In this document: positions 29,801-32,800 of the stretch, piece by piece
How the letters are laid out: each line of letters starts with the position of its first letter
Position numbering within the stretch: the stretch's first letter is position 1
NCBI RefSeq assembly: GCF_006345805.1
Contig: NC_043017.1
Location: 12,834,001-12,898,000 of the forward strand
Length of the DNA stretch: 64,000 bases
Source: Octopus sinensis
Lineage: Eukaryota
Direction: 5' to 3'
Made by a program: the position numbers

Positions 29801-32800
29801 ACGTTCACATTGACCCGCATCTTTCCAACTGGTTTGGAGTACCTAATTCATGGATTTCTTTCTACCATGGATATCTACCGTGGATTTCTACCTCACTTTG
29901 TTCATTCAGAGTACACCATTCCTGCACCTTTGATTACATATATATATATATAATGATAAATCTCAGAGCGAGTTATAAACAGTAGCGGTAACACATCGTG
30001 ACACATATTTGCCATTTGAATATGGCTAACCCATAAGGGTGGATGCTACTGTAGTTTGTAGCCCCAGGAAGATATCTCCTCCAGCTGGCTATAGACACAC
30101 TATCTGTGTCCTCTCAGTATATGTATTTGTGAAGGGATCTGACTTCTCGTCGACAACCATGATTGTCACACGCTGATGAAAGGTAAACACCTTGAAACTC
30201 GGGTACGTGTGTATCATGTGTTGAAGACGGGGAGGATGACTCCCCTTCACAAATACTGAGAGGACACAGATAGTGTGTCTATAGCCAGCTGGAGGAGATA
30301 TCTTCCTGGGGCTACAAACTACAGTAGCATCCACCCTTATGGGTTAGCCATATTCAAATGGCAAATATGCGTCACGATGTGTTACCGCTACTGTTTATAA
30401 CTCGCTCTGAGATTTATCATTGTTTGATTTCACTTTTTCAATATCAGTGTCAATCGACACTGGAAAAAGTATATGTATTTGTGAAGGGATCTGACTTCTC
30501 GTCGACAACCATGATTGTCACACGCTGATGAAAGGTAAACACCTTGAAACTCGGGTACGTGTGTATCATGTGTTGGAGATGGGGAGGATGACTCCCCTTC
30601 ACAAATACTGAGAGGACACAGATAGTGTGTCTATAGCCAGCTGGAGGAGATATCTTCCTGGGGCTACAAACTACAGTAGCATCCACCCTTATGGGTTAGC
30701 CATATTCAAATGGCAAATATGCGTATATATATATATATATATAGATACATACAAATATACATTCACACATACACACACATACGTGTATATATAAATATTT
30801 TGTAGTACTATGGTCTTCAATAAATACTCTCTGGAGAGCAGTGAACTGGTGTGGGGGTGGGTCTTTGAGACCAATGCCAAGTCTGTGTGTGTATGTGCAT
30901 GTATGTGTGTGTGCATGCGGGTGTGTATTTTTTCACACTGAGTGTCCAGTCTTTTGACTTTTGTTGTTTTTTGTTTCATTTTTGATTTGCCCATATACAT
31001 ACATACATACATACATACATACATAAATACATACATATGTGCATGCATACATACATATATTGTGATTACTTTGGGTATCACTGACCTTCTGTGCCTTCTT
31101 TGTTCTTTGATATCAAAGCCAAGAATGTCTATGTATGTATGTATGTATGTATGTATGTATGTATGTAGGCGCAGGAGTGGCTGTGTGGTAAGTAGCTTGC
31201 TAACCAACGACATGGTTCCTGGTTCAGTTCCACTGCATGGCATCTTGGGCAAGTGTCTTCTGCTTTAGCCCCGGGCCAACCAATGCCTTGTGAGTGGATT
31301 TGGTAGACGGAAACTGAAAGAAGCCTGTCATATATATGTATATATGTATATATATGTGTGCGTGTGTGTTTGTGTGTCTGTGTTTGTCCCCCCAGCATTG
31401 CTTGACAACCGATGCTGGTGTGTTTATGTCCCCGTCACTTAGCGGTTCGGCAAAAGAGACCGATAGAATAAGTACTGGGCTTACAAAGAATAAGTCCCGG
31501 GGTCGATTTGCTCGACTAAAGGCGGTGCTCCAGCATGGCCGCAGTCAAATGACTGAAACAAGTAAAAAACAAAACAAAAAAAAGAAGTATGTATGAATGT
31601 ATTCTTAAAATTTTGTGGCTGTTGTTGTTGTTGTTGCTAACATTACTTTTTCTCAGTATAATTTCTTTCATCTTTCTAGGGAATTTCCAAAGGAATTTTT
31701 TATGACCAGCTTCATAGATATATGCTGTTGTTTTTTTTTTATATATATATATTTTCTTTATTCTTGTTTTGAAAAGTAAATTAGTAAATAAATTAGTAAA
31801 GACATGATTTCTAGCAACATATTTCAGGGTGTTTTTTAAAAGAGGTTTCTTAGTCTCAGTGCACCATTGTACAGGGTCCACATTGAAAACTACTGGTGAA
31901 AATACAATTTTTCATGGCCCCTAGAAAATTATTGTGGACCCCCAATTTACTGCATTTCATCCGTGAACCTCCAGAAATTTTGTATGGACCCCAGTTGAGA
32001 ATCCCTGATGTAAAGTATACTGACCGAATTTTACTCCCAAAGATGATGCAATGGTACAAAACGAGAAAAAATAACAAGAAACCAGAAATTGACCCAGTTA
32101 CCAATTTTGCCCCACTTCCATTGAGTAATTCCATGTGTTTGACAGAATGATGAAAAATATGTGAAAAAAGAATGCTTTTAGCTGTTGAGAGATGTTGTTT
32201 TACTCTTTTACTCTTTTACTTGTTTCAGTCATTTGACTGCGGCCATGCTGGAGCACCGCCTTTTAGTCGAGCAAATCGACCCCGGGACTTATTCTTTGTA
32301 AGCCCAGTACTTATTCTATCGGTCTCTTTTGCCGAACCGCTAAGTAACGGGGACGTAAACACACCAGCATCGGTTGTCAAGCAATGCTAGGGGGACAAAC
32401 ACAGACACACACAAACACATACACACACACATATATATATATATACAAATATACAACAGGCTTCTTTCAGTTTCTGTCAACCAAATCCACTCACAAGGCA
32501 TTGGTCAGCCCGGGGCTATAGCAGAAGACACTTGCCCAAGATGCCATGCAGTGGGACTGAACCCAGAACCATGTGGTTGGTTAGCAAGCTACTTACCACT
32601 CAGCCACTCCTGTAAATAAAACTAAATTCAAAAGTTTTCTTTATTTACTTGCTTCATAGAATAAGAACAGTTTGGAAATAGAGATGTGTGTGTGTGCCAA
32701 GGTCAAGCTCAGTCAAGCATTGAAAGAAAGAATTTGAGACAATAACATTTTTTCTATCAATCTCTTTATACATTCATGTTTACACACACAAACACACATA

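What the first reader, a model, noticed from the sequence alone, without database searches (positions are those of the whole stretch)
29952..30724. Retrozyme-like element: 352-nt tandem unit, each with an intact hammerhead ribozyme, predicted to release a small self-cleaved or circular RNA
Seen in sequence: two identical canonical type-I HHRs (30167-30211 and 30519-30563) exactly 352 nt apart in a direct repeat, an inverted 169-bp partial copy upstream, (TA)n on both sides and no coding capacity. Established knowledge: tandem HHR-bearing units of a few hundred nt define non-LTR retrozymes, which produce circRNAs in several metazoans. Minimal HHRs with a palindromic stem III and inverted partial terminal copies are hallmarks of Penelope-like elements. 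Inference: a + strand transcript would cleave after 30205 and 30557, possibly via a dimeric HHR, to give a 352-nt monomer that can circularise and be copied by a Penelope RT. The near-identity of the copies suggests recent activity. I am not aware of such a family being characterised in cephalopods, but I cannot verify that.
Basis: partly seen in the sequence, partly recalled or inferred. Interest (0 to 1): 0.9.

Follow-up and report, generated by a model that had tools for sequence, protein, structure and literature searches.

The report
Octopus hammerhead-ribozyme mini-retroelement insertion
A small non-coding mobile element in an octopus-like genome carries two copies of a self-cutting RNA motif and looks like one recent insertion made by Penelope-type retrotransposon machinery; this kind of element is known in other animals but apparently not described in cephalopods.

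Summary
Window 29952-30724 contains 1.73 head-to-tail copies of a 352-nt unit (2 mismatches in 257 nt). An inverted 173-nt partial copy (99%) lies at its 5' side, and the whole sits inside a split (TA)n tract. Each direct copy has a complete type-I hammerhead: conserved core, helices of 6, 5 and 2 bp, and a GUA cleavage site after 30205 and 30557. No motif this strict appeared in 1000 shuffled windows. However, Rfam's hammerhead models do not match it, even at E<=10.

The predicted 352-nt monomer is non-coding, 42.6% GC and strongly structured (z = -8.1). Two ribozyme copies are predicted to pair as a double hammerhead.

The layout is the published footprint of Penelope-like-element (PLE) integration: a partial tandem, an inverted 5'-truncated copy, a (TA)n target and ends 49 nt apart. 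I read it as one young insertion of a retrozyme-like, non-autonomous PLE derivative, copied from an uncleaved multimer or a circular RNA.

No RT or GIY-YIG ORF and no other copy of the unit is in the window. Genome-wide copy number, cleavage and circular RNA could not be tested. It is a new member of a known kind.

The parts
29938..29952 (.). Left (TA)n flank, one half of the split target microsatellite
   Evidence: Regex scan for (TA)>=5 runs; sequence read
29952..30124 (-). Inverted 5' partial copy of the unit. It is the reverse complement of 30249-30421 and merges into copy 1 inside the unit's own stem-I palindrome at about 30116-30124.
   Evidence: the repeat finder I1: 173 nt, 99%. blastn: 185 nt, 96% with a 6-nt indel. 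Three-way alignment shows one C/T difference at a CpG.
30116..30467 (+). Complete 352-nt unit (copy 1)
   Evidence: the repeat finder D2, period 352; blastn
30167..30211 (+). Hammerhead ribozyme 1, type I. Helix I is 30167-30172 with 30206-30211. The core heptamer is 30173-30179. Helix II is 30180-30184 with 30189-30193. The GAA core is 30194-30196. Helix III plus loop is 30197-30204. Cleavage is predicted after A 30205. Helix I continues after a small internal loop (30158-30163 with 30213-30218).
   Evidence: Descriptor scan and shuffles; folds; sequence. Not matched by Rfam.
30206..30557 (+). Predicted ribozyme-to-ribozyme RNA monomer: 352 nt, GC 42.6%. As a circle it folds at -127.7 kcal/mol, z = -8.1 against 100 shuffles, with 64% of bases paired.
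   Evidence: ViennaRNA run; helix list
30373..30421 (+). 49-nt stretch present at the outer end of the inverted copy but absent from the outer end of copy 2. It resembles the PLE 'tail'. Both boundaries fall in loops of small predicted hairpins.
   Evidence: Three-way alignment; helix list; comparison with PMC8557442 and PMC11167929
30422..30467 (+). Unit segment found only in copy 1. It forms a predicted 8+7-bp hairpin (30432-30470).
30468..30724 (+). Partial second unit (257 of 352 nt), ending at the right (TA)n
30519..30563 (+). Hammerhead ribozyme 2, identical to ribozyme 1. Cleavage is predicted after 30557.
30724..30743 (.). Right (TA)n flank

Best explanation
This is one fairly recent retrotransposition product of a small (352-nt unit), non-coding RNA that carries a hammerhead ribozyme. 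It is a non-LTR retrozyme-like, non-autonomous derivative of Penelope-like elements (PLEs), in an octopus-type genome.

Inferred integration. A PLE-type reverse transcriptase/endonuclease cut a (TA)n tract. One DNA strand primed cDNA synthesis at the unit position equivalent to 30372 and copied 1.73 unit lengths. The template was therefore either an uncleaved multimeric transcript or a circular monomer read round more than once. The other DNA strand primed 49 nt further 3' on the template, at the equivalent of 30421, and produced the inverted 173-nt copy. The two cDNAs were joined where the unit's own stem-I palindrome gives them complementary ends, at about 30116-30124.

Inferred RNA behaviour. 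A + strand transcript of the locus carries two hammerheads. Their weak 2-bp helix III can be replaced by an 8-bp intermolecular helix in a double hammerhead. Cleavage after 30205 and 30557 would then release a 352-nt RNA with 5'-OH and 2',3'-cyclic phosphate ends, which a host tRNA ligase could circularise, as shown for mussel, coral and axolotl retrozymes. In the monomer the catalytic core is predicted to be sequestered by an alternative pairing, which would protect a circle from re-cleavage.

Shown here: the anatomy, the non-random motif, the structure predictions, and the match to the published PLE footprint. Inferred: the enzyme, the order of steps, cleavage and circularisation.
For: Anatomy.

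Motif beyond chance: 0 of 1000 shuffled windows gave a motif this strict, and 0 of 200 in the first run. All 11 pairs in helices I and II are Watson-Crick.

Helix III: the 8-nt helix III segment is fully self-complementary when G-U pairs are allowed (k3 = 4 with loop 0). The duplex energy is -8.9 kcal/mol. Cofolding two 45-nt ribozyme segments gives exactly the double hammerhead as the minimum-energy structure, at -29.5 kcal/mol. That compares with 2 x -13.0 for the best single folds and 2 x -7.4 for single hammerhead folds.

Monomer: 352 nt, GC 42.6%, z = -8.1, 64% paired. The published retrozyme traits are 150-450 bp repeats, GC below 45-50%, no LTR/PBS/PPT and highly self-paired RNAs; the mussel repeats are 350-390 bp (PMC7229834).

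PLE footprint in the literature:
- Partial tandems with an inverted 5'-truncated copy immediately at the 5' end, a 30-40-bp tail at one end, and (TA)n targets (PMC8557442).
- A purified PLE protein cleaves and extends both DNA strands, prefers AT-rich DNA, and starts reverse transcription at two internal sites downstream of the hammerhead. Those two sites delimit the tail. Unprocessed RNA is its main template (PMC11167929, main text).

Other evidence:
- Flanking by (TA)n is unlikely by chance: 90 of 63225 placements.
- Only 3 substitutions separate the three copies, and 2 of them are CpG-to-TpG changes.
- There is no RT or endonuclease domain nearby: none of the 107 ORFs of at least 40 aa in 26.5-34.2 kb matches one.
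- PLEs exist in Octopus genomes (PMC13282606 and PMC8967140, passages).
- The window is octopus-like: 6 of 8 hits of a repeat-derived ORF are named Octopus vulgaris.
- Two other hammerhead-type elements in the same window also have their sense-strand 3' end on (TA)n.
Against: - Rfam's hammerhead covariance models do not match the motif at any threshold tried.
- The base pair closing helix II (10.1-11.1) is A-U. PMC4209133 lists G-C there as highly conserved.
- Nearest-neighbour folding prefers an inactive alternative in which the core pairs with loop 3. In the isolated 45-mer this is -13.0 against -7.4 kcal/mol. In the circular monomer the alternative has pair probabilities of 0.93-0.97 and helix III has 0.0. 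The same alternative appears at both ribozymes in the 609-nt tandem transcript, whose minimum-energy fold does not show the double hammerhead.
- Only one locus exists in 64 kb, and no other copy was found, so a family is not shown.
- The tail-like offset is 49 nt, longer than the published 30-40 bp.
- No promoter was identified. An A-box-like site has 1 mismatch, but no B box lies within 2 mismatches.
- The purified anole PLE needed a stretch of its own ORF as template. Whether this unit has an equivalent binding site is unknown.
Confidence: 0.68

Rival explanations
1. It is an ordinary terminal remnant of an autonomous Penelope-like element: a 5'-truncated 3' end or pLTR. The 352-nt repeat would have arisen afterwards at the DNA level, by local duplication or unequal crossover. 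That is the route the 2026 preprint proposes for the birth of retrozymes.
For: Most PLE insertions are 5'-truncated and keep only a terminal repeat, and terminal sequences are proposed to seed tandem repeats locally (10.64898/2026.07.22.740005, discussion). Hammerheads lie in pLTRs. No second locus of the unit is in the window.
Against: The repeat period equals the ribozyme-to-ribozyme distance. The whole structure lies between the two halves of one (TA)n tract, with the truncated second copy ending exactly at the tract. One insertion of a template longer than one unit explains this more simply than an insertion followed by a duplication. No RT or GIY-YIG remnant lies within about 3.5 kb on either side. 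The 3 differences among the copies fit a single age.
Confidence: 0.17
2. The hammerhead is a catalytically dead look-alike. The locus is a foldback or mini-satellite produced by replication or repair errors in a microsatellite-rich region, and it has no RNA life cycle.
For: There is no Rfam match. The 10.1-11.1 pair is A-U, helix III is weak, and an alternative inactive fold is favoured. The window is full of microsatellites and inverted repeats.
Against: 0 of 1000 shuffles gave a comparable motif. Features that my descriptor did not demand are present: a palindromic helix III, an extended stem I with an internal loop, and a GUA site. The strand, the 3'-end polarity and the (TA)n target all agree with retrotransposition, and two further hammerhead-type elements in the window show the same polarity.
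Confidence: 0.08
3. The relevant product is a long hairpin RNA. The inverted copy plus copy 1 (29952-30421) forms a duplex arm of about 185 bp or more, which would feed small-RNA or RNA-editing pathways. The ribozyme would be incidental.
For: The arms are 173-185 nt at 96-99% complementarity. This reading does not exclude the best explanation.
Against: The inverted copy is a common by-product of PLE integration. There is no expression or small-RNA data, and nothing suggests the hairpin is selected for.
Confidence: 0.05

Closest known systems
Metazoan non-LTR retrozymes (Cervera and de la Pena 2020, PMC7229834): mussel repeats of 350-390 bp, and axolotl Rtz_353 with the HHR_Amex2 ribozyme
   Same: Type-I hammerhead in a short head-to-tail repeat of a few hundred bp. 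Low GC, no coding capacity and a highly self-paired monomer. Helix III of 2 bp capped by a tetraloop, as described for HHR_Amex2 and invertebrate motifs. Coexistence with PLEs in the genome.
   Different: Only 1.73 units at one locus are seen here. The closing pair of helix II is A-U. Loop-loop tertiary contacts were not assessed. No expression or circular-RNA data exist. The host is a cephalopod. An inverted 5' partial copy is present, which the passages I read of that paper do not mention.
Insertions of Penelope-like elements (Penelope/Poseidon, Neptune, Naiad; PMC8557442, PMC11167929)
   Same: Partial tandem plus an adjacent inverted 5'-truncated copy. (TA)n or AT-rich target. Two alternative end positions that give a tail at one end. 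A sense-strand hammerhead upstream of the 3' end.
   Different: There is no RT/GIY-YIG ORF. The unit is 352 nt rather than about 3 kb. The tail-like offset is 49 nt rather than 30-40 bp. The ribozyme has the canonical type-I layout rather than the PLE minimal type (longer helix II, helix I of 4-5 bp, a bulged base after position 9, no helix III).
Non-autonomous PLE derivatives such as the Chlamys-related MRC1 of Chlamydomonas (PMC8557442)
   Same: Short non-coding elements that form pLTRs and multicopy head-to-tail insertions, presumably using a PLE enzyme.
   Different: Those share 3' ends with known autonomous families, and most Chlamys elements lack canonical hammerheads. No autonomous partner could be identified here.
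Newt/salamander satellite 2 and Schistosoma Sm-alpha hammerhead repeats (PMC6155905)
   Same: Type-I hammerhead in units of about 330 bp, with an unstable helix III and cleavage as a double hammerhead from tandem copies.
   Different: Those are very high-copy arrays with demonstrated cleavage. Here there is a single short insertion with no biochemical data.
Plant LTR retrozymes (PMC4918200; search listing only)
   Same: Non-autonomous retroelements whose RNA is cut out by two hammerheads and circularised.
   Different: Per the description in PMC7229834, plant elements have type-III ribozymes inside LTRs, PBS/PPT, 4-bp target duplications, a span of about 700 bp between ribozymes and GC above 55%. 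The unit here is 352 nt with 42.6% GC, no LTRs flank it, its ribozymes are type I, and a 4-bp duplication cannot be read inside (TA)n. PBS/PPT were not searched for.

Membership tests
Hammerhead ribozyme, type I | Conserved core (C3 U4 G5 A6 N7 G8 A9; G12 A13 A14; A15.1-U16.1; H17) framed by helices I, II and III, with helix I open | tested here: met
   Descriptor scan finds it at 30167-30211 and 30519-30563; positions read
Hammerhead ribozyme, type I | Match to Rfam hammerhead covariance models | tested here: not met
   No match at gathering score, nor at E<=10 on 901-nt and 96-nt slices
Hammerhead ribozyme, type I | G10.1-C11.1 pair closing helix II, listed as highly conserved in PMC4209133 | tested here: not met
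   A-U at 30180/30193. The axolotl HHR_Amex2 has a U-U mismatch at the base of helix II; the passage shown was cut before its activity result.
Hammerhead ribozyme, type I | Site-specific self-cleavage | not testable with these tools
   Needs in vitro transcription
Metazoan non-LTR retrozyme (PMC7229834) | Type-I hammerheads in head-to-tail repeats of about 150-450 bp (dimers to multimers) | tested here: met
   Period 352, 1.73 units, two ribozymes
Metazoan non-LTR retrozyme (PMC7229834) | Non-coding, no LTRs, GC below 45-50% | tested here: met
   Longest ORF is 84 aa with no Pfam hit; GC 42.6%. PBS/PPT were not searched for.
Metazoan non-LTR retrozyme (PMC7229834) | Highly self-paired monomer RNA | tested here: met
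   z = -8.1, 64% paired
Metazoan non-LTR retrozyme (PMC7229834) | Multicopy family dispersed in the genome | not testable with these tools
   No cephalopod genome is searchable here. There is no second copy in the 64-kb window. Protein-space proxies found nothing usable.
Metazoan non-LTR retrozyme (PMC7229834) | Expressed as linear and circular unit-length RNA | not testable with these tools
   No RNA data available
Metazoan non-LTR retrozyme (PMC7229834) | Loop 1-loop 2 tertiary contacts of canonical type-I motifs | tested here: inconclusive
   Helix I has an internal loop 6 bp from the core (30164-30166 opposite 30212), and loop 2 is 4 nt. I had no reference sequences to compare the contact residues. 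The mussel motifs also lack most of them.
Autonomous Penelope-like element | ORF with telomerase-like RT and a GIY-YIG endonuclease | tested here: not met
   No RT or GIY-YIG match, and no Pfam match above its curated cut-off, in any of the 107 ORFs of at least 40 aa in 26.5-34.2 kb, nor in the 54 of 133 ORFs of at least 90 aa scanned window-wide
PLE-type insertion footprint | Partial tandem, adjacent inverted 5'-truncated copy, tail at one end, AT-rich or (TA)n target | tested here: met
   compared. The tail-like offset is 49 nt against the published 30-40 bp.
PLE minimal hammerhead (PMC4209133) | Helix II of 7-8 bp, helix I of 4-5 bp, an unpaired base after position 9, no helix III or only a palindromic 15.2-16.2 | tested here: not met
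   Helix I is 6 bp (extended), helix II is 5 bp with no bulge, and helix III is 2 bp plus a tetraloop. A different repeat family in the window does fit this layout.

The most novel reading that the evidence does not exclude
This is a currently or very recently active cephalopod retrozyme lineage. Its insertion scar (inverted 5' copy, two start sites 49 nt apart, (TA)n target, more than one unit copied across uncut ribozyme sites) would be direct single-locus evidence for two things. First, that PLE enzymes mobilise retrozyme RNA. Second, that the template is a circular or multimeric RNA rather than the processed linear monomer. If the family is expressed, octopus tissues would contain abundant ribozyme-derived circular RNAs of about 352 nt that standard back-splicing circRNA surveys miss.
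Probability: 0.3. Interest if true: 0.65.

Novelty: new member of a known kind. Interest (0 to 1): 0.45.

Why it matters
Retrozymes are the one known route by which animal genomes make circular RNAs through self-cleaving ribozymes. How they are copied back into DNA is still unsettled. A 2026 preprint argues from vertebrate data that they are non-autonomous derivatives of Penelope-like elements, and it states that other animals and the mechanism remain to be examined.

This insertion combines a retrozyme-type unit and ribozyme with the integration scar that is specific to PLEs. That gives a concrete, testable link between the two in a mollusc lineage where, in my literature searches, no such element is described. 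The only cephalopod mention I found is a count of 235 Rfam hammerhead-1 loci in the giant squid genome.

It also shows that Rfam-based annotation would miss this ribozyme.

Tried and rejected
1. Rfam cmscan, run three ways, gave no hammerhead. The E<=10 list held only miRNA-family and similar matches on the (TA)n/(CA)n tract at 30700-30800 and a 21-bit MIR9481 match over the stem-I hairpin. All are far below gathering scores, and I treat them as spurious.

2. I looked for other copies through predicted proteins.
- The 84-aa reading frame across the unit found no candidate in the 5.8-billion-protein word search.
- It found one hit in the 1.84-billion-representative HMMER search. That hit is a 1888-aa protein with a 75-aa internal tandem repeat. 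Its score is a weak 28-residue similarity (36% identity) summed over 23 repeats. I rejected it as repeat-inflated.
- These searches say little about copy number, because non-coding repeats are rarely predicted as proteins.

3. ARAGORN found no tRNA or tRNA-like gene in the window.

4. A scan for a tRNA-type internal pol III promoter found one A-box-like site with 1 mismatch and no B box within 2 mismatches. The two box consensus patterns were recalled from memory. A SINE-type promoter is not supported.

5. Pfam on 54 of 133 ORFs of at least 90 aa, and on all 107 ORFs of at least 40 aa near the element, gave only sub-threshold, low-complexity matches.

6. blastn of the two flanks and of the solo-ribozyme island against the window gave only self hits.

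7. Not done: any search of a cephalopod genome or transcriptome. The one genome-contig scan was not spent, because that collection holds only bacteria and archaea. Supplementary files of the papers, including the hammerhead figures and PLE consensus files, could not be seen. They may hold cephalopod PLE or hammerhead sequences that bear on novelty.
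Full report
**What is there.** Window 29952-30724 lies between two runs of (TA)n, at 29938-29952 and 30724-30743.
- It contains a complete 352-nt unit at 30116-30467.
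- The first 257 nt of a second copy follow, at 30468-30724. They match at 99%, with differences only at 30224/30576 (A/G) and 30228/30580 (C/T).
- Immediately upstream lies an inverted copy of the part of the unit downstream of the ribozyme. 29952-30124 is the reverse complement of 30249-30421, at 173 nt and 99%. It reaches 185 nt at 96% if a 6-nt indel is allowed.
- blastn of the unit against the whole window finds nothing outside this locus.

**The ribozyme.** My own type-I hammerhead descriptor finds 30167-30211 and 30519-30563 on the + strand.
- The descriptor demands helix I, the CUGANGA core, helix II, GAAA, helix III, then U and a non-G base, then helix I again.
- Here helix I is 6 bp, helix II is 5 bp with a 4-nt loop, and helix III is 2 bp with a 4-nt loop. 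The cleavage triplet is GUA, so cleavage would follow 30205 and 30557.
- All 11 pairs in helices I and II are Watson-Crick.
- Helix I continues after a small internal loop for another 6 bp, 30158-30163 with 30213-30218. In the predicted monomer it runs on as an interrupted stem of about 41 paired positions down to 30243-30256 with 30475-30488.
- 1000 dinucleotide-preserving shuffles of the window gave 0 motifs of this quality, 2 at I>=4/II>=5/III>=2, and 28 of a relaxed minimal type. An earlier run gave 3 relaxed and 0 strict hits in 200 shuffles.
- The two copies are duplicates, so they count as one independent occurrence.

**Evidence against the ribozyme.**
- Rfam's covariance models give no hammerhead match. 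This holds for the whole window at gathering scores, for 29900-30800 at E<=10 (19 matches, none a hammerhead), and for 30140-30235 at E<=10 (0 matches).
- The pair closing helix II is A-U rather than the usual G-C (for the rule).

**Type of ribozyme.** The layout is what PMC4209133 calls the canonical metazoan type-I motif: helix I of 6 bp, and a helix III of 1-2 bp capped by a small palindromic loop. It is not the PLE minimal motif, which has a long helix II, a 4-5-bp helix I, a bulged base after position 9 and no helix III.

**Single versus double hammerhead.**
- The 8 nt of helix III plus its loop are fully self-complementary when G-U pairs are allowed. As a duplex they give -8.9 kcal/mol.
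- Cofolding two isolated 45-nt ribozyme segments returns exactly the double hammerhead as the minimum-energy structure, at -29.5 kcal/mol. Two single hammerhead folds give 2 x -7.4, and the best single fold gives 2 x -13.0.
- That best single fold is an inactive alternative, in which part of the core pairs with loop 3.
- In the circular monomer this alternative has pair probabilities of 0.93-0.97, and helix III has 0.0.
- In the minimum-energy fold of the 609-nt tandem transcript, both ribozymes also show the inactive alternative, not the double hammerhead.
- So thermodynamic prediction supports the dimer mode only for isolated segments. These models ignore tertiary contacts. Activity remains an inference.

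**The RNA that would be released.**
- The ribozyme-to-ribozyme monomer (30206-30557) is 352 nt with 42.6% GC.
- As a circle it folds at -127.7 kcal/mol, against -84.7 +/- 5.3 for 100 shuffles (z = -8.1), with 64% of bases paired.
- It has no ORF longer than 84 aa and no Pfam match.
- These values fit the published description of metazoan non-LTR retrozymes. Those are 150-450-bp repeats with type-I hammerheads, GC below 45-50%, no LTR/PBS/PPT and highly self-paired RNAs of 170-400 nt. In the mussel the repeats are 350-390 bp and are expressed mostly as circles (PMC7229834, passages and section 14).

**How the locus was made.** The architecture matches the footprint described for Penelope-like elements.
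- Insertions are 5'-truncated partial tandems, often with an inverted 5'-truncated copy immediately at the 5' end. A 30-40-bp tail is present at only one end, and (TA)n is a preferred target (PMC8557442, passages).
- A purified anole PLE protein cleaves and extends both DNA strands and prefers AT-rich sites. It initiates reverse transcription at two adjacent internal sites downstream of the hammerhead cut, and those sites delimit the tail. It uses mainly unprocessed RNA (PMC11167929, main text).
- In this element the direct copies end at the unit position equivalent to 30372, while the inverted copy starts at the equivalent of 30421, 49 nt further on.
- Both positions fall at or in loops of small predicted hairpins. 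That is a prediction only.
- The inverted and direct parts meet at about 30116-30124, at the base of the unit's own stem-I palindrome, where two oppositely primed cDNAs would have complementary ends (inference).
- The directly copied stretch (30116-30724) spans 1.73 units and contains both ribozyme sites uncut. The template therefore cannot have been a linear processed monomer. It was an uncleaved multimer or a circle copied for more than one round.
- The chance that a random 773-bp segment has (TA)>=5 on both sides is 90 in 63225.
- No RT or GIY-YIG domain is detectable in any of the 107 ORFs of at least 40 aa between 26.5 and 34.2 kb, nor in the 54 of 133 larger ORFs scanned across the window. 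The element is non-autonomous at this locus.

**Age.**
- The three copies differ by 3 substitutions: 2 in 257 nt between the direct copies, and 1 in the part of the inverted copy that is unambiguously a copy.
- Two of the three are C-to-T changes at CpG sites, which is typical of decay after insertion.
- I used the calibration quoted for octopus repeats, a Jukes-Cantor distance of 0.09 for about 25 million years (PMC13282606, passage). A pairwise divergence of about 0.7% then suggests an age of roughly one million years.
- The error is very wide, because only three events are counted, the rate is assumed, and gene conversion is possible.
- The near-identity dates one insertion. It does not show several recent events.

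**Host and literature.**
- A repeat-derived ORF next to the element (28200-28523, minus strand) has 8 database hits, and 6 of them are named Octopus vulgaris hypothetical proteins. The cephalopod origin is therefore supported.
- Octopus genomes carry PLE families (PMC13282606 and PMC8967140, passages).
- 'hammerhead ribozyme' with 'octopus' found 5 papers (4 listed), none about an octopus ribozyme element judging by the 4 listed titles and abstract openings.
- 'retrozyme' with 'cephalopod' found 2 (1 listed, Craig et al., where the two words are unrelated).
- 'hammerhead', 'cephalopod' and 'ribozyme' together found 7 (4 listed). Only the giant squid genome paper is relevant. It reports 235 Rfam hammerhead-1 loci without further analysis.
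- The library lacks most subscription journals, and supplements were closed. 'Not described' therefore holds only for these searches.

**Verdict.** This is a real, non-random feature. It is best read as a young, single insertion of a retrozyme-like non-autonomous PLE derivative in an octopus genome, which makes it a new member of a known kind. Its main value is that one locus shows a retrozyme-type unit and ribozyme together with the PLE-specific integration scar. Cleavage, circular RNA, family size and the autonomous partner remain untested.

Noticed in passing
window 28994-29036, minus strand (island about 28901-29124): A third hammerhead-type motif of different sequence. Helix I is 4 bp, helix II is 5 bp with a 6-nt loop, the 8-nt helix III segment is again fully self-complementary, and the site is GUA. 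It lies in an AT-rich island of about 220 nt between (TA)n runs, with its sense-strand 3' end on (TA)n about 100 nt after the predicted cut. Motifs of this quality occurred 2 times in 1000 shuffled windows. It may be a solo 5'-truncated PLE-type insertion.
   Followed up: partly
window 29412-29792; also 51420-51620 (-), 4640-4800 (-), 8030-8200 (+): A dispersed repeat family of about 200 nt (70-83% identity). Its conserved centre has the PLE minimal-hammerhead layout: short helix I, core heptamer, a bulged A, a 4-bp helix II with G10.1-C11.1, GAAA, and a palindromic 15.2-16.2. Only the copy at 51517-51551 (-) has the intact CUGAUGA core. The others differ from it at positions that are CpG in those copies. 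4 of 5 arms end on (TA)n. The copy at 29412-29792 is a head-to-head inverted pair (146-nt arms, 90%), which is a second PLE-like inverted arrangement 160 bp from the main element.
   Followed up: partly
window 28281-28565 and 34944-35228; 31166-31574 and many others: Abundant SINE-like dispersed repeats at 80-97% identity. The translated ORF of one of them matches Octopus vulgaris hypothetical proteins. ARAGORN calls no tRNA in the window.
   Followed up: partly
window 30700-30800: Rfam at E<=10 reports mir-297, mir-466 and similar families on the (TA)n/(CA)n tract, with a best score of 49 bits against a gathering score of 90. These are microsatellite artefacts, not miRNA genes.
   Followed up: yes
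window 55949-56048: A run of 100 N (assembly gap or mask). It was left untouched.
   Followed up: no
window 60856-61240 and 62377-62761: The longest inverted repeat in the window: 385-nt arms, 96% complementary, 1136 nt apart. Not examined.
   Followed up: no
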